A stretch of DNA of 64,000 nucleotides from a virus. Lineage: Duplodnaviria; Caudoviricetes. Positions 3,091 to 42,037 of this stretch are shown one piece after another. The translations under genes were made by a program, and so were the position numbers. The number at the start of each line of letters is the position of its first letter. Within the stretch, counting starts at the first letter, position 1. Location of the stretch: the IMG/VR virus record IMGVR_UViG_3300033075_000861, positions 1-64,000 of that record, one strand, 5' to 3'. The notes under the pieces were generated by a model. That model made no database searches and had not been told where the DNA came from. It worked only from the letters and a program-made list of their open reading frames with translations.

Positions 3091-3429
3091 ATGTCCTACG
3101 TTTTCTACCTGCGTCACCCCAAAACGACGCATGAGAAACGCCACAACCAACAGAAGAACGGCGGCTACCACCGCCCCAAGCGATCCGCCAAGAACCTGCC
3201 AGACACCTACGACGATTTGTGGGTGCCCTTCCGCCACTACAAGTGCTGGAAGAAGCAGTACAAGATCAGCCCGGCCCACAGCCGGGACGGCAAGCACCGC
3301 CGCACGCACCAGCACCATGTGAGGTGCATGGGCTGCGGCGTCACCATCAGGAGGTTCGTCATGAGCAAGCATCAACGCCGCAAACAGAACGTGAGCATTG
3401 TGTCGGAGGCCCCGCTCCACTGTCTTTGA
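3091..3429 (+). CDS. basic hypothetical phage protein; ends in CTT-TGA
   Basis: RHPKTTHE...KNLPDTYDD...KCWK motif; internal ATG at 3361 preceded by AGGAGG. Confidence 0.6.
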   Translation: MSYVFYLRHPKTTHEKRHNQQKNGGYHRPKRSAKNLPDTYDDLWVPFRHYKCWKKQYKISPAHSRDGKHRRTHQHHVRCMGCGVTIRRFVMSKHQRRKQNVSIVSEAPLHCL

Positions 3430-4120
3430 GCGGGCCAACGAGGTCATCGTGGAGATCCTTCACGGCGAAGGAGGCCAGGACTCCAAGCTCTTCGTGAGCG
3501 ATCTGTTCGATCTCTACGAGAAGTACGCGGCCCAGAAGGGCTGCCAGACCGAGGTTCTGGACGACGGCGACGGCCACGTCGTCTTCAAGGTGACCGGCTC
3601 CAGGGCCGGCTCCGCGTTCCAGCATGAGGCTGGCAACCACTGCGTCCAGAGGGTTCCGCCCACGGAGAGGAACGGACGCCGGCAGACGAGCTTCGTCACC
3701 GTCGCGGTGCTGCCCCTGCCGCCCGAGAGCAAGTTCGTTCCGCTCCCTGAGAGGGAACTGGACATCACGACCCAGACCGGCAAGCAGCGGGCCGGTGGTC
3801 AGAACGCGAACAAGGTAGCCTCAGCCGTGCGGATGGTCCACAAGCCTACGGGCATGAGGGTCTTCATCAACGGCAGGGACCAAATCTTCAACCGCAAGGA
3901 GGCTCTGAGGATTCTCACCGCCAAGGTCAACGACGCCAGGAACGGTGCCACCCAGGAAGCCTACTCCAAGAAGAAGGCCGAGCAACTGGCTAACCGTGGG
4001 CGGGGCAACAAGATCCGCACCTACAACTTCATCGACAATTTTGTCACCGACCACCGGACGGACAAGGAGACGAAGAACGTCAAGGAGGTCATGAAGGGTA
4101 AGCTGGATCTGGTGCTGTGA
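3398..4120 (+). CDS. peptide chain release factor, RF1-type (PxT), lacking domain 1; start uncertain, possibly reached by +1 frameshift
   Basis: VEILHGEGG, HCVQRVPPTE (PxT), AGGQNANK (GGQ), IRTYNF motifs. Confidence 0.9.
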   Translation: MCRRPRSTVFERANEVIVEILHGEGGQDSKLFVSDLFDLYEKYAAQKGCQTEVLDDGDGHVVFKVTGSRAGSAFQHEAGNHCVQRVPPTERNGRRQTSFVTVAVLPLPPESKFVPLPERELDITTQTGKQRAGGQNANKVASAVRMVHKPTGMRVFINGRDQIFNRKEALRILTAKVNDARNGATQEAYSKKKAEQLANRGRGNKIRTYNFIDNFVTDHRTDKETKNVKEVMKGKLDLVL

Positions 4121-34652: not shown

Positions 34653-34737
34653 TGAGGCGACAACTACCTGCCGAGGTGTGAGCGGAAGACTAACGGCGTA
34701 GCCGTGATGGACCAGTGCTTCGACTCAATTCACAAAG

Positions 34738-36276: not shown

Positions 36277-36523
36277 TCAGTCGATGACCAAGCATATCAG
36301 ACCAGCGTGTAGTCTCCTGTGACAGTTGGCACAAAGTATCACGCACTTGGCTATCTCGTCCTTAATCCTTGGCATTCCGTAGTCCCGGTCCCGTCCTATG
36401 CTGAAAGTCTTGTCCCGCAAGTGATGGAAATCCAAGCAGGCCACGCATGTCTCGCCGCCCAGCCCTCTTCTTGTTGAAGTCGGCTATAGGTTTTTCTTCG
36501 TTGCAGAGTGTGCAGGTCTTCAT
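36277..36523 (-). pseudogene. HNH endonuclease pseudogene (internal deletion/frameshift)
   Basis: Frame 1 MKTCTLCNEEKPIADFNKK; frame 2 CVACLDFHH...EIAKCVILCANCHRRLH. Confidence 0.7.
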
Positions 36524-36567
36524 GTCCTAATGTAGTCAGGGAGATGAAAACCTGCTCTGTATTTCAG

Positions 36568-36639
36568 TGCCACCCCACGGAGTTGAACCGTGGCTCGATG
36601 CTCTTCAGGCATCTGTGCAGACCCCTACACCAGAGTGGC
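36568..36639 (-). tRNA. tRNA-Phe(GAA)
   Basis: GCCACTC/GGGTGGC, GATGC-CTGAAGA-GCATC, GGTTCAA. Confidence 0.85.
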
Positions 36640-36668
36640 ATTTGACGGAGACATAATCGCCTGCGGGT

Positions 36669-36753
36669 TGATTCCTGTGGGATTCGATACCCACAAATCC
36701 CTTGCGGGATGCCGACTTTTGAGGTCAGTGTGTTTACTTTACACGAAGGAACC
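36669..36753 (-). tRNA. atypical tRNA-Leu(CAA) inside a bipartite stem cassette (36643-36773)
   Basis: GGTTCCT/AGGAATC, GTGT/ACAC D-stem, CTGAC-CTCAAAA-GTCGG, variable arm ATCCC-GCAA-GGGAT, 8-nt T-loop. Confidence 0.7.
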
Positions 36754-36774
36754 GCAAACTGCAACTTCCGTCAG

Positions 36775-36858
36775 TCGGGGAGGCGGGAGTCGAACCCGCA
36801 TGGCTCAAGGCCGGCATGGTTTAAGCATGCTGTGTCTCACCATTTCCACCACACCCCG
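36775..36858 (-). tRNA. tRNA-Leu(TAA)
   Basis: GCATG-CTTAAAC-CATGC, long variable arm. Confidence 0.85.
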
Positions 36859-36859
36859 A

Positions 36860-37165
36860 TTACTCGTAACCCAACTCCTTGATCGCCCTGTCGGCATCCT
36901 TCTTGTAGCCGATGCCGACCTTAGACCTCTCCCTCCTGATGAGGTTCTCCGCGTGTGCCTTGAGACTAAGGGCATCGGTGTTTCTTTTCCGCCACCTCTT
37001 CGCAGCACGTCTGTGTCCTTCGGGATTATCTTTCCTGCGTTGCCTCGATTTTTCAGCACGACATTGCAGGCACTGGTAGTCTAACCCAGACTTGGTGGCT
37101 TCGTTTACGCCGAACGCCGAAGTCGGTTTGGCGTTTTTGCAACCGCTACAATAGGTCAGGTTCAT
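36860..37165 (-). CDS. Zn-ribbon DNA-binding domain of a homing endonuclease, no nuclease domain visible
   Basis: YCSGCKNAKPTSAF...GLDYQCLQC. Confidence 0.6.
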   Translation of the reverse strand: MNLTYCSGCKNAKPTSAFGVNEATKSGLDYQCLQCRAEKSRQRRKDNPEGHRRAAKRWRKRNTDALSLKAHAENLIRRERSKVGIGYKKDADRAIKELGYE

Positions 37166-37192
37166 GTGAGTCTCCTGACCTATTGTAGCGGC

Positions 37193-37564
37193 TCAGAACT
37201 CGTCGTCGTTGGGCCAGTCGTCGGGGTCGGTGCCCCACTCCTCAAGGAAAGCCCTGACCTTCTTGCCCTTGTCGGTCAGCCAGCTTCCGCCGACGCTGCC
37301 GCCGTGTTCCATCAGTCCGTGAGCGTTTAGGAAGTACAGGATCAGCATGTCGTAGCCGCTGCCTGGGCCTTCCCAGTTGCCGCCGCGAGCGTAAGCCCAC
37401 GCCTTGCGGTCGCCGCCCTCGTCGTAGGCTCTCAGCGTCTCCAAAAGGGCGTCGTAGCCCTCGTCGGGGTTGCCGCAGCCGCAGAAGTCGAGACTGCGGA
37501 TGCCCTGAAGTCCTTCTTTCCAGGCTTGCATGGCTTCCATGTGTATCCTCTTCTTCCGCTTCAT
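37193..37564 (-). CDS. hypothetical protein
   Basis: FCGCGNP...MEHGGSVGGSWLTDKG; GAGGAG RBS. Confidence 0.7.
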   Translation of the reverse strand: MKRKKRIHMEAMQAWKEGLQGIRSLDFCGCGNPDEGYDALLETLRAYDEGGDRKAWAYARGGNWEGPGSGYDMLILYFLNAHGLMEHGGSVGGSWLTDKGKKVRAFLEEWGTDPDDWPNDDEF

Positions 37565-37576
37565 GTGACTCCTCGT

Positions 37577-37664
37577 TCCGTCTGATTGGTGGGAATCGAA
37601 CCCACAGGGCCTCGCCGGCACGGTGTGCAACCGTTTGACCTGCCAATGTCTACAGCCAGACGGA
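37577..37664 (-). tRNA. atypical class II tRNA with a Tyr-like body, GCA anticodon and extended acceptor stem
   Basis: D-loop ATTGGCAG as in the adjacent tRNA-Tyr; ACGG-TTGCACA-CCGT; GTGGG-TTCGATT-CCCAC. Confidence 0.55.
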
Positions 37665-37666
37665 AG

Positions 37667-37749
37667 TGTGTCGTGCAGGAGTCGAACCTGCAAGGCTCTA
37701 AGAGCGGCACGGTTACAGCGTGCTGGGCCTGCCAATGCCCAAACGACAC
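37667..37749 (-). tRNA. tRNA-Tyr(GTA)
   Basis: GTGTCGT/ACGACAC, GCACG-CTGTAAC-CGTGC. Confidence 0.9.
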
Positions 37750-37751
37750 AT

Positions 37752-37878
37752 GATGGGTGCAAAGCCCGGCGTAACCGTGCCCTGTCCGAAGTCGGTCAAT
37801 TCATAGTCATCAGCCGCTTTTACGGCAACGCTCCGTTAGCTCCCATATCCACCGGGTTCGGACCCGGAGTTCATCCAG
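37752..37878 (-). ncRNA. unassigned structured RNA candidate between tRNAs
   Basis: Non-coding gap with hairpins (CCGGG-TCCGAA-CCCGG; CCGA/TCGG). Confidence 0.35.
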
Positions 37879-37960
37879 AAACGGCGGTGGGACTCGCACC
37901 CACGGTGGCTTACGCACCGGCTTTGCAGGCCGGCCCCTTCGCTGCTCGGGTCACGCCGTC
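37879..37960 (-). tRNA. tRNA-Cys(GCA) with an enlarged variable region
   Basis: GACGGCG/CGCCGTT, U73, CCGGC-CTGCAAA-GCCGG, ~13-nt variable region, T-loop TGCGAGT. Confidence 0.8.
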
Positions 37961-37965
37961 ATGAG

Positions 37966-38103
37966 TGACGCTGGTCGGCATCGAACCGACACCACAGCAC
38001 TATCCCCAACGATCCTCTCCCTTTGTGCTACAGGTATGGGAACCCCTGTGTCCGTAACTATTCGGGGACGTGTTATCTGAGGCCCGCCCTTCGCGGTGCG
38101 TCA
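37966..38103 (-). ncRNA. tRNA-like RNA (acceptor + T-arm, multi-hairpin interior)
   Basis: TGACGC/GCGTCA, GTCGG-TTCGATG-CCGAC, AGCAC/GTGCT stem with a 24-nt loop. Confidence 0.55.
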
Positions 38104-38107
38104 TCAG

Positions 38108-38190
38108 TGCCTAAGGCGGGAGTCGAACCCGCATGCCCTTACGAGCGGCAGTTTTTGAAACTGCTGTGTATGCCTTTCCACCACTTAGGC
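38108..38190 (-). tRNA. tRNA-Leu(CAA)
   Basis: GCCTAAG/CTTAGGC, GCAGT-TTCAAAA-ACTGC. Confidence 0.92.
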
Positions 38191-38193
38191 GTT

Positions 38194-38338
38194 TGACCGG
38201 AGAAATAGTCACTAAGGGTTTTTCTGTTTAGCTTCTCGGCCTTAGGGTTGGGCGAAGTGGCCGAGGTAGGATTTGCACCTACAATCTACACTTTTTCAGG
38301 GTGTTGCTGAAGTATCCCTTAACTGCAACTTCCGGTCA
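38194..38338 (-). ncRNA. circularly permuted tRNA-Phe(GAA)-like RNA inside a bipartite stem cassette
   Basis: Order on the minus strand: D-3' (AGC), anticodon arm ACACC-CTGAAAA-AGTGT, T-arm GTAGG-TGCAAAT-CCTAC, acceptor-3' CTCGGCC+A, 16-nt linker, acceptor-5' GGCCGAG, D-5' GCT. Confidence 0.75.
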
Positions 38339-38339
38339 G

Positions 38340-38421
38340 TGTCCGAGGTGGGACTTGCACCCACACGCCCGAAGGCACGGCCCCCTCAAGACCGGGCGTC
38401 TGCTAATTCCGCCACTCGGAC
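38340..38421 (-). tRNA. tRNA-Leu(GAG)
   Basis: GTCCGAG/CTCGGAC, CGGTC-TTGAGGG-GGCCG. Confidence 0.88.
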
Positions 38422-39763: not shown

Positions 39764-39884
39764 TGGTGCAGGGAGCAGGGTTTTCACCTGCGAGTGGACG
39801 GCACCTATCCGTCATAGTCGCCGGCAACCATACGGCTACCGTCTGTCTAACGCTCTTGCGTCCAAGGCTTCCGACTTCCCCTGC
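39764..39884 (-). ncRNA. tRNA-like RNA with encoded CCA and a large D-loop insertion
   Basis: GCAGGGG/TCCCTGC-A-CCA, T-arm GCAGG-TGAAAAC-CCTGC, D-stem GTCG/CGAC enclosing two hairpins, non-canonical anticodon loop. Confidence 0.6.
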
Positions 39885-40473: not shown

Positions 40474-40522
40474 GGTAGTTGTCGCCAAGTTGTCAAAGAA
40501 CACCGGAGTTAGGGTCCGGTAG

Positions 40523-40596
40523 TGCCGCCCCACGGAGTTGAACCGTGACCCCTAGGGTTTCAAGCTAGTGTGCAGACACCCCTACACCAGAGCGGC
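40523..40596 (-). tRNA. tRNA-Phe(GAA), paralog of 36568-36639
   Basis: GCCGCTC/GGGCGGC, CTAG(C)-TTGAAAC-(C)CTAG. Confidence 0.75.
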
Positions 40597-40670: not shown

Positions 40671-40717
40671 AAAAAGAAGAACCCCCGCCAGGCCGGTTTG
40701 GCCTGGCGGGGGTTCTT
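40671..40717 (-). terminator. strong terminator/attenuator upstream of the tRNA operon
   Basis: 18-bp stem AAGAACCCCCGCCAGGCC-AAACC-GGCCTGGCGGGGGTTCTT then CTTTTT. Confidence 0.8.
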
Positions 40718-40746
40718 ACAACCGCTGGTGTAAGATCCGCTTTAGC

Positions 40747-40833
40747 TCAAACCGCAAGCCGATCAAGGCCGCTGAGAAACAGCGACGACAACAGGCAGAG
40801 GCTATACAGCAAGCAAGCGGAGAAGGAAATCAC
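40747..40833 (-). CDS. putative leader peptide MISFSACLLYSLCLLSSLFLSGLDRLAV
   Basis: GTG 8 nt after GGAG; sits between a promoter and a terminator; S/F/C/L/Y-rich. Confidence 0.6.
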   Translation of the reverse strand: MISFSACLLYSLCLLSSLFLSGLDRLAV

Positions 40834-40923
40834 GGATGTAGCTCCGAGGATGTCTCTTGTTCTCTTATCGGCCAGCGGGAACTCTCCCGAGGCTCGGATG
40901 AGGGCACTAGGCCCTACATCCCT

Positions 40924-40951
40924 AATATAGCCAGGTCGCCTCAGTTTTCAA
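40924..40951 (-). promoter_or_regulatory. promoter of the leader/tRNA operon
   Basis: TTGAAA-N16-TATATT with the same spacing as the other promoters. Confidence 0.6.
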
Positions 40952-40975: not shown

Positions 40976-41938
40976 TCAGCCTGGGAAGACCTCTTTCACC
41001 GTCTGGACGCTGCCCTCACCGACCGTCTTGAGGTTGGTGAACTTGTCCGTGCCGGCCTGGTCCGCGAGGTGCTTGTCCTTCATGTTGAACCAGGGGCCGT
41101 AGTAGTCCTCGCACGCCTTCGGCAACGGGGGCATTGGCAGGCCGGTGATCTGGGTGAACCCGACCGCATCCACCAGATAGACAGCGGTGAACGCGGAAGG
41201 TTCACTCTTCCACACGGAAATCCCGTAGGGGTCCGGGTAGACCTTCTGATCGATCTGCCCGCCCTTGCCCACGCCCATCTCCACCGCCTTGCTCACCGAC
41301 CTGCTGGCCGAGGCCGGCCCGGCTGCCGCACACGCGAAGGACATCGCCTCCAATCCGCCGCAGCACTCGTAGTCGGACGACTCAAGCCCGCCGCTGAAGC
41401 CGTAGTGGCTGGGGGTGTGGACCGGACGGGGGAACGCCGTGGCGGGGTCGCTCGCCTCAAACACGGCGATGCCCAGACCGCCGGTCTTGCAGTCCTCGCC
41501 GTGCATCTGTTCGCCCACGGTCAGGCCCTCGCCCTTCTCGTACTTCGTGGACACGAACTGGAACACGGTGCCGTCGTCGCCTTTCCAGCCGTCGAGCCAG
41601 GGTTGGGGCGGGCTGACGACGTAGCCATCTTCCTCCAGCCTCAGGCCGAGCTTCTTGCCGTTGACCGCGTTGACGCCGCCGGCCCCGATGAGCATGGCGA
41701 CCGGGTGGCCCTTGGAGCCGAAGCTCATCCACATCGCCTCGGCGTCGTGCATCGCCAGGAAGTAGCCGTTCTCGTCCCAGCCGGCAGGACAGGCGTCTTT
41801 GTAGTCGGCCACCTTATACAGCGTGAAGTGCCCCAGGCTGGGCGGCAGGCTGCTGACCTCGCCCTCCTTCACGCGGACGGTGCGGTGGAAGGTGACGCGG
41901 ACGGGGCCGAGGTCGAGGCTGGCGAGATTATCGCTCAT
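40976..41938 (-). CDS. conserved protein of unknown function
   Basis: LPPSLGHF...EAMWMSF...VNAVNG...PQPWLDG...FQFV. Confidence 0.75.
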   Translation of the reverse strand: MSDNLASLDLGPVRVTFHRTVRVKEGEVSSLPPSLGHFTLYKVADYKDACPAGWDENGYFLAMHDAEAMWMSFGSKGHPVAMLIGAGGVNAVNGKKLGLRLEEDGYVVSPPQPWLDGWKGDDGTVFQFVSTKYEKGEGLTVGEQMHGEDCKTGGLGIAVFEASDPATAFPRPVHTPSHYGFSGGLESSDYECCGGLEAMSFACAAAGPASASRSVSKAVEMGVGKGGQIDQKVYPDPYGISVWKSEPSAFTAVYLVDAVGFTQITGLPMPPLPKACEDYYGPWFNMKDKHLADQAGTDKFTNLKTVGEGSVQTVKEVFPG

Positions 41939-42037
41939 GTTTTCTCCTTGAGGGTTAGAGTTCGGCCAGTAGTGCCTCTCCTCGTCGCCTTGGCCGCGAG
42001 GCAGCACGAATTGATCCAGTACATCCTAAATAAGGCA

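What the first reader, a model, noticed from the sequence alone, without database searches (positions are those of the whole stretch)
36643..38338. Shared bipartite stem cassette with bulge-helix-bulge geometry wrapped around two different tRNA bodies
Seen on the minus strand, copy A (36643-36773): TGACGGA-AGTT-GCA-GTTTGC [tRNA-Leu CAA] GCAGGC-GATT-ATG-TC-TCCGTCA. Copy B (38194-38338): TGACCGGA-AGTT-GCA-GTTAAGGG [permuted tRNA-Phe] CCCTTAGT-GACT-ATT-TC-TCCGGTCA. The outer and inner stems differ in sequence but still pair, while the core (4-bp AGTT/GAYT helix with a 3-nt bulge 3' of it on each strand) is conserved. A related AGTC-GGAA...GACT-ATG core occurs in the tRNA-like RNA at 39764-39884. 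Established: this is the geometry of the archaeal/eukaryal BHB splice substrate, and bacterial Y RNAs have a Ro60-binding stem attached to a tRNA-like domain. Inference: a phage RNA-processing or protein-binding module that carries tRNA domains.
Basis: partly seen in the sequence, partly recalled or inferred. Interest (0 to 1): 0.85.

Follow-up and report, generated by a model that had tools for sequence, protein, structure and literature searches.

The report
Two stem-capped phage tRNA look-alikes

Summary
The repeat is real. Copies A (36643-36773) and B (38194-38338), both on the minus strand, share a three-part terminal stem: 7-8 bp, then 6 bp, then 4-6 bp, with a 5-nt bulge on the 3' strand and a 3-nt bulge on the 5' strand. 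The stem strands are 94% and 79% identical. The enclosed bodies (36%) and the upstream tRNA-Leu genes (49%) are not similar. A's body is a degenerate tRNA-Leu(CAA). B's body is a tRNA-Phe(GAA)-like fold permuted at the D loop. The same core (GGAAGUYG ... GAYUAUG) appears as the acceptor/D-stem junction of tRNA-like element C.

The bulge-helix-bulge reading fails. The bulges are 3 and 5 nt, a different register is more stable, no EndA or RtcB gene is present, the host is bacterial, and cutting there would leave about 49 extra nt in the D loop.

The Ro60/Y-RNA reading is not supported either. The motif is off by one base, the tRNA elbows are degenerate, and neither this contig nor five relatives encode a TROVE protein.

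No homologue turned up in IMG/VR, metagenome loci, relatives or 185,000 prokaryote genomes.

Best guess, with confidence 0.4: two paralogous stable tRNA-mimic RNAs, released by RNase Z and RNase P when the flanking tRNAs are processed, sharing a tRNA-derived handle that a common factor recognises. Two tools that could have tested this were closed.

The parts
36754..36773 (-). Copy A, 5' strand of the handle: outer stem UGACGGA (36767-36773), helix strand AGUUGC (36761-36766), bulge AGU (36758-36760), inner stem UUGC (36754-36757)
36665..36753 (-). Copy A body: class II tRNA-Leu(CAA)-like cloverleaf (36669-36753) plus ACCC. The D loop AAAGUAA lacks G18G19, the T loop has 8 nt, and no CCA is encoded
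   Evidence: Rfam tRNA 40.8 bits; ARAGORN calls it only at -ps90; alignment with the six canonical tRNA-Leu genes
36643..36664 (-). Copy A, 3' strand of the handle: inner GCAG, helix GCGAUU, bulge AUGUC (36650-36654), outer UCCGUCA (36643-36649)
38316..38338 (-). Copy B, 5' strand of the handle: outer UGACCGGA, helix AGUUGC, bulge AGU, inner UAAGGG
38219..38315 (-). Copy B body: tRNA-Phe-like fold permuted at the D loop. In order: AGC (D-stem 3' strand), A26, anticodon arm with loop CUGAAAA (GAA at 38295-38297), variable AGAUU, T arm GUAGG-UGCAAAU-CCUAC, acceptor CUCGGCC + A73, 16-nt linker, acceptor GGCCGAG, AA, GCU
   Evidence: sequence reading; RNAfold; partial Rfam tRNA hit of 21.6 bits at 38266-38324; ARAGORN tRNA-Phe(GAA) on the de-permuted sequence at -ps90
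38194..38218 (-). Copy B, 3' strand of the handle: inner CCCUUA, helix GUGACU, bulge AUUUC (38202-38206), outer UCCGGUCA (38194-38201)
39764..39884 (-). Element C: tRNA-like RNA ending in ACCA. Its acceptor/AA/D-stem junction (GGGGAAGUCG ... CGACUAUG) has the same core as the A/B handle, and its D loop carries a 51-nt two-hairpin insert
   Evidence: not detected by the A/B model
37750..37877 (-). Element E: inter-tRNA RNA carrying GACUAUGA, the fourth GAYUAUK site; weakly structured (z = -1.45)
37961..38106 (-). Element D: tRNA-like RNA with a closing stem that starts UGACG...CGUCA as in A, a D-arm-like hairpin, a canonical T arm, and a roughly 95-nt replacement of the anticodon arm
   Evidence: sequence reading
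36774..36858 (-). tRNA-Leu(UAA) directly upstream of A, with 1 nt between its discriminator base and the handle. Its 3' processing would create A's 5' end
36567..36639 (-). tRNA-Phe(GAA) 3 nt downstream of A. RNase P cleavage here would create A's 3' end
38339..38421 (-). tRNA-Leu(GAG) directly upstream of B
38107..38190 (-). tRNA-Leu(CAA) 3 nt downstream of B

Best explanation
A and B are two paralogous, non-decoding tRNA-mimic RNAs built on one shared handle. They lie inside a roughly 6-kb minus-strand tRNA operon bounded by two strong terminators. Each sits 1 nt after the discriminator base of a tRNA-Leu and 3 nt before the next tRNA. Ordinary tRNA processing would therefore release them as RNAs of about 135 and 149 nt: 3' cleavage of the upstream tRNA by RNase Z or equivalent, and RNase P cleavage at the downstream tRNA. 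Their 5' and 3' ends are locked in the bulged terminal stem (inferred). The handle looks derived from a tRNA acceptor stem plus AA plus D stem, as still seen in element C. In A and B the anticodon, variable and T arms of that scaffold are reduced to the 5-nt linker AUKUC, and the D loop holds the tRNA-like body. The handle's conserved sequence suggests that one common factor, a protein or a nuclease, recognises it. The bodies display a Leu-CAA or a Phe-GAA anticodon arm on folds with degenerate elbows and no CCA end, which suits a decoy or tether for a tRNA-binding factor better than it suits translation. Shown: the repeat, the fold, the island-like conservation, the genomic packing. Inferred: release, stability, binding partner and role.
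For: The exact 13-mers occur only in A and B. Folding z-scores are about -4, and the fold persists in context with outer-pair probabilities of 0.85-1.0. All 18 of 18 pairs are kept in both copies, with 3 double changes and a matched indel. The handle is 94% and 79% identical, against 36% for the bodies and 49% for the upstream tRNA-Leu genes. A's body lacks G18G19 and has an 8-nt T loop. B's body has a closed acceptor and an opened D loop. The core motif is shared with C, and GAYUAUK is confined to the inter-tRNA elements. The array is very compact, with tRNA spacers of 1-6 nt, and bounded by terminators. Relatives of the phage carry an unrelated, covarying, stem-closed cloverleaf RNA in their tRNA arrays, so stem-closed tRNA-like RNAs recur in this clade.
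Against: No homologue of the handle was found anywhere, so conservation rests on two copies in one contig. There is no expression or RNA-end data, and no candidate binding protein: the contig showed no RNA-processing enzyme. The array is interleaved with HNH and endonuclease VII-like genes and gene fragments, which favours rearrangement debris. A's body still passes the Rfam tRNA threshold, so it may be a working tRNA.
Confidence: 0.4

Rival explanations
1. Rearrangement debris. A and B are tRNA pseudogenes or chimeras produced by duplication and endonuclease-driven recombination in the array. The shared handle is a duplicated spacer hairpin with no role of its own, and the transcripts are simply degraded.
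For: Two HNH genes, one endonuclease VII-like gene and one truncated paralogue are interleaved with the odd elements. Five different aberrant tRNA-like elements lie within 3.3 kb, and D and E fold no better than shuffles. No homologues exist elsewhere. A permuted gene order is the expected product of a tandem duplication followed by loss of the outer halves (PMC3978253).
Against: The handle strands are far better conserved than everything around them. B's non-homologous inner stem still pairs perfectly. The spacing to the flanking tRNAs is tight and identical in both copies. Folding z-scores are about -4.
Confidence: 0.27
2. Processing cassette for real tRNAs. The leader-trailer stem is a site for a double-strand-specific or other endonuclease, or a maturation brake. 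A would yield an extra tRNA-Leu(CAA). B, after RNase P opens its acceptor loop and CCA is added, would yield a two-piece or D-loop-extended tRNA-Phe.
For: A's body scores 40.8 bits as tRNA. B keeps an intact 7+5-bp acceptor/T minihelix and A73. M. smegmatis YrlA, which has a 7-bp closed acceptor, is cut by RNase P and receives CCA (PMC4201824; 10.1101/312249). The whole array is itself clamped by a perfect 13-bp leader-trailer pairing, 40474-40486 with 34656-34668. The handle offers about 18-20 bp of interrupted duplex.
Against: Canonical tRNA-Leu(CAA) and two tRNA-Phe(GAA) genes already exist in the array. The elbows of A and B are degenerate. The contig showed no RNA-processing enzyme. A leader paired to its trailer normally hinders RNase P (general knowledge).
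Confidence: 0.13
3. Y-RNA-like ribonucleoprotein. The handle binds a Ro60/Rsr protein from the host or from the unseen 83% of the phage genome, and the tRNA-like domain tethers an effector, as in Yrn1 (stem continues from the acceptor, like A) and YrlA (permuted tRNA-like domain, like B).
For: The modular design matches: a 5'/3' stem plus a tRNA-like domain in both known orientations (PMC4201824 sections 6 and 10). The handle's 5' strand, GAC(C)GGAAG, resembles GNCGAAN0-1G and GGUCCGA. A subset of jumbo phages encodes TROVE proteins (PMC7824862).
Against: No TROVE gene in the 84 kb or in five related records, including a 595-kb genome. The motif is off by one inserted base, and such a near-match is expected by chance in roughly one case in five (my estimate). 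The T and D arms that define YrlA are not conserved. B is opened at the D loop, not at the anticodon. No Rfam Y_RNA hit at E<=5.
Confidence: 0.08
4. BHB-type splicing and circularisation. An endonuclease cuts both bulges and a ligase joins the ends, maturing the permuted tRNA as in Cyanidioschyzon merolae.
For: B has the gene order of a type I (D-loop junction) permuted tRNA: 3' part, then a 16-nt intervening sequence, then the 5' part, with paired leader and trailer (PMC3978253). One register gives a 4-bp helix between two bulges.
Against: The bulges are 3 and 5 nt. That register is 1.8-3.4 kcal/mol less stable. The contig has no EndA or RtcB. tRNA-Tyr is class II, so the host is bacterial. 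Joining at the bulges leaves the inner stem plus linkers of 11 and 7 nt in the D loop. The same cassette around the non-permuted A would serve no purpose.
Confidence: 0.04

Closest known systems
Bacterial Y RNAs: YrlA (Salmonella, mycobacteria, mycobacteriophages) and Yrn1 (Deinococcus)
   Same: A stem formed by the RNA's 5' and 3' ends, joined to a tRNA-like domain. The closed, loop-capped acceptor stem of B matches YrlA. A stem continuing from the acceptor, as in A, matches Yrn1. No free CCA end.
   Different: No Ro60 gene nearby. The Ro-binding motif is not matched exactly. The elbow (D/T loops) is degenerate rather than highly conserved. B is opened at the D loop, not the anticodon. Both bodies keep a full anticodon arm.
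Circularly permuted tRNA genes with leader-trailer BHB (C. merolae, green algae, Thermofilum pendens)
   Same: B has the order 3' part, short intervening sequence, 5' part, with the junction in the D loop (type I) and a paired leader and trailer.
   Different: The bulges are not 3+3 nt. No splicing endonuclease or ligase was seen. The host is bacterial. The junction would not restore a normal D loop. The identical cassette also encloses a non-permuted body.
Stable RNAs of unknown function in the phage T4 tRNA gene cluster (species 1 and 2; from my own knowledge, not checked in a paper here)
   Same: Small structured RNAs encoded among phage tRNA genes and released by the tRNA-processing enzymes, in a phage with a T4-type capsid protein.
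   Different: No sequence relation was tested. The T4 RNAs are not known to share a common handle or to be permuted.
Leader-trailer processing stems of rRNA operons
   Same: Flanking sequences pair to enclose a structured RNA. The same array also has an operon-wide 13-bp clamp.
   Different: The handle is only about 18-20 bp with two bulges. No cleavage evidence exists.

Membership tests
Bacterial Y RNA (YrlA/Yrn1) | Long stem formed by pairing of the 5' and 3' ends | tested here: met
   RNAfold; 18/18 pairs in both copies
Bacterial Y RNA (YrlA/Yrn1) | 5'-strand Ro60 motif GNCGAAN0-1G (YrlA) or GGUCCGA (metazoan) | tested here: not met
   The handle reads GACGGAAG (A) and GACCGGAAG (B), each one inserted base away from the motif (motif from PMC4201824)
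Bacterial Y RNA (YrlA/Yrn1) | Conserved T and D arms that form a tRNA elbow | tested here: not met
   A: D loop without GG and an 8-nt T loop. B: D loop opened, T loop UGCAAAU
Bacterial Y RNA (YrlA/Yrn1) | Encoded next to a Ro60/TROVE gene | tested here: not met
   No PF05731 match in the 84-kb contig or in five related records. The contig is only about 17% of a genome, so absence from the whole phage is not shown
Bacterial Y RNA (YrlA/Yrn1) | Match to a curated Y RNA model | tested here: not met
   No non-tRNA Rfam family matched A or B at E<=5. Whether Rfam holds a YrlA model was not checked
BHB splice substrate / permuted tRNA gene | Two 3-nt bulges on opposite strands separated by a 4-bp helix | tested here: not met
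   Bulges are 3 and 5 nt. The alternative register with a 6-bp helix is more stable by 1.8 and 3.4 kcal/mol
BHB splice substrate / permuted tRNA gene | 3' part of the tRNA upstream of the 5' part, joined by an intervening sequence at the acceptor ends | tested here: met
   True of B only: sequence reading and ARAGORN on the de-permuted body
BHB splice substrate / permuted tRNA gene | Cut-and-join at the bulges restores a canonical tRNA | tested here: not met
   The inner stem (6-8 bp) plus linkers of 11 and 7 nt would remain in the D loop (sequence reading)
BHB splice substrate / permuted tRNA gene | Splicing endonuclease (EndA) and ligase available | tested here: not met
   No PF01974 or PF01139 match in the contig. 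Class II tRNA-Tyr points to a bacterial host. The rest of the phage genome is unseen
Canonical tRNA (RF00005) | Score above the Rfam gathering threshold (29 bits) | tested here: inconclusive
   A's body scores 40.8 bits (met). B's body scores 21.6 bits over a partial match (not met). ARAGORN finds A only at -ps90
Canonical tRNA (RF00005) | G18G19 and a 7-nt T loop (elbow), with free acceptor ends | tested here: not met
   In A the acceptor stem continues into the inner stem. In B it is closed by a loop
RNase III leader-trailer stem | About two turns of duplex that RNase III cleaves | not testable with these tools
   The handle has 18-20 bp interrupted by two bulges. No cleavage data

The most novel reading that the evidence does not exclude
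The handle is the recognition site of a phage or bacterial cut-and-join (or cut-and-hold) pathway that matures a circularly permuted tRNA-Phe. That would be the first permuted or split tRNA gene expressed in a bacterial system, with the same handle also gating a nested tRNA-Leu.
Probability: 0.05. Interest if true: 0.9.

Novelty: new variant of a known kind. Interest (0 to 1): 0.5.

Why it matters
If A and B are made as stable RNAs, they would show a phage reusing one tRNA-derived handle to mount different tRNA-like domains, one of them circularly permuted. That design is so far known from Y RNAs bound to Ro60, not from tRNA operons of giant phages. It would point to an unknown handle-binding factor. 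Because the operon appears tuned to shortage of Ser, Leu, Tyr, Cys and Phe tRNAs, it might also link to host attacks on tRNAs. At present the case rests on two copies in one metagenomic contig, with no expression data.

Tried and rejected
Scans for the handle:
- IMG/VR scan with the shared 14-mer gave chance hits only.
- Two bipartite handle patterns in IMG/VR gave 0 hits and 27 chance hits with no outer pairing.
- The same kind of scan in 185,579 prokaryote genomes gave 14 chance hits.
- A pattern for element C in IMG/VR gave 0 hits.

Relatives:
- The neighbour protein (40976-42007) has 267 homologues.
- 84 loci of relatives were fetched. All were 55% identical or less.
- A descriptor scan, blastn-short and the A/B covariance model R2 found no handle in them or in five whole related records.
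- Single-protein searches with the capsid protein and the 102-aa ORF found nothing.

Other checks:
- Rfam matched no family besides tRNA.
- ARAGORN found no tmRNA.
- The S-element model R1 has no copy in the window.
- C, D and E are not significantly alignable to A or B apart from the short motifs.
- A k-turn, a loop E motif and a tetraloop receptor were considered by eye and rejected.
- An antisense-target reading has no support: the best matches have 2 mismatches.
- The supplementary tables of the YrlA paper are not held.

Full report
**Context.** The window is the first 64 kb of an 84,290-bp IMG/VR viral contig that CheckV rates as about 17% complete. It has 61% G+C. It encodes a T4-type Gp23 capsid protein, ribonucleotide reductase, SbcC, CTP synthase, tail sheath and baseplate proteins, and a release-factor-like protein. 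Its nearest named relative is the 595-kb uncultured huge phage LR756511.1, at 39% capsid identity.

On the minus strand, between two strong intrinsic terminators (40717-40677 and 34653-34622), lies a unit of about 6 kb. It holds 15 ARAGORN tRNAs (Ser, Leu, Tyr, 'Cys', Phe), a further tRNA-Phe(GAA) paralogue at 40522-40596, two HNH genes, one endonuclease VII-like gene and a truncated copy of it, and five non-tRNA elements that I call A to E. tRNA-Tyr is class II (84-86 nt), which is the bacterial type (established knowledge). Spacers between adjacent tRNAs are 1-6 nt.

**The observation.** A (36643-36773) and B (38194-38338) are as described. The 13-mers GGAAGTTGCAGTT and GAYTATKTCTCCG occur only in these two places in the contig. 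Each element folds into a terminal stem of three helices around a multi-helix body, with z = -4.1 and -4.0. The fold is unchanged when the flanking tRNAs are included.

On the A/B alignment all 18 handle pairs are standard pairs in both copies. Three inner pairs changed on both sides, two changed between G-C and G-U, and a C inserted in B's 5' strand is matched by a G in its 3' strand. Identity is 94% for the 5' strand and 79% for the 3' strand. It is 36% for the bodies and 49% for the two upstream tRNA-Leu genes. The handle strands are therefore islands of conservation.

**The handle's geometry.** RNAfold's register is a 6-bp helix AGUUGC/GYGAYU, an AGU bulge and then the inner stem. Both are fully paired in both copies. 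The second is more stable by 1.8 kcal/mol in A and 3.4 kcal/mol in B. In either register the 3' strand bulge is 5 nt (AUGUC or AUUUC). This is not the 3-4-3 geometry of a canonical bulge-helix-bulge.

**The bodies.** A's body is a class II tRNA-Leu(CAA)-like cloverleaf scoring 40.8 bits on Rfam tRNA. Its D loop (AAAGUAA) lacks G18G19 and its T loop has 8 nt. ARAGORN finds it only at a relaxed threshold. Its acceptor stem continues into the handle across a 5-nt 3' bulge.

B's body reads, 5' to 3': AGC, A26, an anticodon arm with loop CUGAAAA, a 5-nt variable loop, a T arm with loop UGCAAAU, acceptor CUCGGCC plus A73, a 16-nt linker, acceptor GGCCGAG, AA, GCU. That is a tRNA-Phe-like fold opened in the D loop and closed at the acceptor. 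De-permuted, with the D loop trimmed, ARAGORN calls it tRNA-Phe(GAA) in 3 of 20 variants at -ps90. Rfam gives only a partial 21.6-bit match. Canonical tRNA-Leu(CAA) and tRNA-Phe(GAA) genes already exist in the array.

**Relation to the other odd elements.** Element C (39764-39884) has a 7-bp acceptor, then AA, then a D stem GUCG/CGAC enclosing a 51-nt two-hairpin insert, then UAU, an anticodon-like arm, a T arm (loop UGAAAAC) and ACCA. Its junction GGGGAAGUCG ... CGACUAUG is the same core as the A/B handle.

Read this way, the A/B handle is a tRNA acceptor stem plus AA plus D stem. The anticodon, variable and T arms are reduced to the 5-nt bulge, and the D loop holds the body. This is an inference from short motifs. 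C is not found by the A/B covariance model, and local alignments are not significant. However, all four minus-strand occurrences of GAYTATK in the contig fall in A, B, C and E, and only three occur on the other strand of the whole 84 kb. Element D begins and ends with UGACG...CGUCA like A, and has a canonical T arm.

**Search for relatives.** The neighbour gene (40976-42007) has 267 homologues, which defines a huge-phage clade. I fetched 16 IMG/VR loci and 68 metagenome loci. All were 55% identical or less. Many carry tRNA arrays, but neither a motif-plus-stem descriptor, blastn-short, nor the covariance model R2 (including the whole of LR756511.1) finds the handle. Pattern scans of IMG/VR and of 185,579 prokaryote genomes gave only chance matches with no outer pairing.

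**Testing the two named analogies.**

BHB splicing:
- the geometry is wrong and the register is the less stable one;
- the contig has no EndA and no RtcB;
- the host is bacterial;
- joining at the bulges would leave B's inner stem and two linkers, about 49 nt, in the D loop, whereas permuted tRNAs of C. merolae are restored exactly (PMC3978253);
- the same cassette around the non-permuted A would be pointless.

Y RNA:
- The architecture is like Yrn1 for A and YrlA for B (PMC4201824; 10.1101/312249).
- The 5' motif GNCGAAN0-1G is missed by one inserted base.
- The D/T elbow that defines YrlA is degenerate here.
- No TROVE gene exists in the contig or in five related records.
- A host Ro60, or one in the unseen part of the genome, is not excluded.

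**What I think it is.** The packing fixes the likely ends. There is one base after the upstream tRNA's discriminator and three bases before the next tRNA. Normal tRNA 3' and 5' processing would release A and B with their ends sealed in the handle. The sequence conservation of the handle goes beyond what pairing requires, and the bodies have intact anticodon arms but degenerate elbows and no CCA. These features fit non-decoding tRNA mimics that share one recognition platform (confidence 0.4).

The rivals are:
- debris from endonuclease-driven rearrangement (0.27);
- a processing cassette for real tRNAs (0.13). M. smegmatis YrlA is a precedent for RNase P opening a closed 7-bp acceptor. The array's perfect 13-bp operon-wide leader-trailer clamp (40474-40486 with 34656-34668) shows that end-pairing is used here at a second scale;
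- a Ro60 partner (0.08);
- BHB-type splicing (0.04).

**Supporting parallel.** Low-G+C relatives carry a different 115-nt RNA directly after tRNA-Ser(GCT). It is closed by a 12-bp stem and has three hairpins. Of its 36 predicted pairs, 13 show compensatory changes in five sequences, and it matches no Rfam family. It is not homologous to A or B. It does show that stem-closed, cloverleaf-like RNAs are maintained in tRNA arrays of this clade.

**Earlier notes of this scan.** One note describes the permuted B as I do. I verified the 13-bp operon clamp reported in another. One reports a leader-peptide attenuator before the array; I saw its terminator and the Ser/Leu/Phe/Cys/Tyr-rich peptide. One reports a related phage that keeps element C with compensatory changes. 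I could not find that phage, and it is the first place to look for A/B homologues.

Noticed in passing
L118:18905-19029, L153:2278-2391, L136:11824-11940, L133:12524-12637, L132:11724-11840 (also L250, L253): A conserved RNA of about 115 nt sits directly after tRNA-Ser(GCT) in the tRNA arrays of low-G+C relatives. It has a 12-bp covarying closing stem and three hairpins (cloverleaf-like). 13 of 36 pairs show compensatory changes. It matches no Rfam family and has no copy in this window.
   Followed up: partly
window 40474-40486 and 34656-34668 (minus strand): A perfect 13-bp complementarity (GGCGACAACUACC / GGUAGUUGUCGCC) brackets the tRNA array from tRNA-Ser(UGA) down to the last tRNA (the upstream tRNA-Phe at 40522-40596 lies outside it) and ends just before the terminator, like an rRNA-operon leader-trailer clamp. 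It does not extend beyond 13 bp.
   Followed up: partly
window 40677-40951 (minus strand): A promoter-like site, a short ORF rich in Ser/Leu/Phe/Cys/Tyr codons, and a strong terminator precede the array.
   Followed up: partly
window 37580-37659 and 37878-37960 (minus strand): Two tRNAs with anticodon GCA (Cys) are 80 and 83 nt long and appear to carry a long variable arm, which is unusual for tRNA-Cys. Their aminoacylation identity is unclear.
   Followed up: no
window 40522-40596 (minus strand): ARAGORN at a relaxed threshold calls a tRNA with an odd 'ctag' loop. By eye it is a paralogue of tRNA-Phe(GAA) at 36567-36639 with a changed anticodon stem (Rfam 46.5 bits), not a suppressor.
   Followed up: partly
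window 3398-4120 (+): A 240-aa ORF with PCRF and RF-1 domains: a phage-encoded release-factor-like protein.
   Followed up: no
window 36860-37165 (-) and 36362-36523 (-): An endonuclease VII-like zinc-finger ORF of 101 aa, and a paralogue starting with the same CxxC...KP...F motif that stops after 53 codons. They flank the tRNA-Leu / A / tRNA-Phe block.
   Followed up: partly
window 37961-38106 and 37750-37877 (minus strand): Elements D and E are two further inter-tRNA RNAs. D has a closing stem, a D-arm-like hairpin, a canonical T arm and a 95-nt extension in place of the anticodon arm. E carries GACUAUGA but folds weakly.
   Followed up: partly
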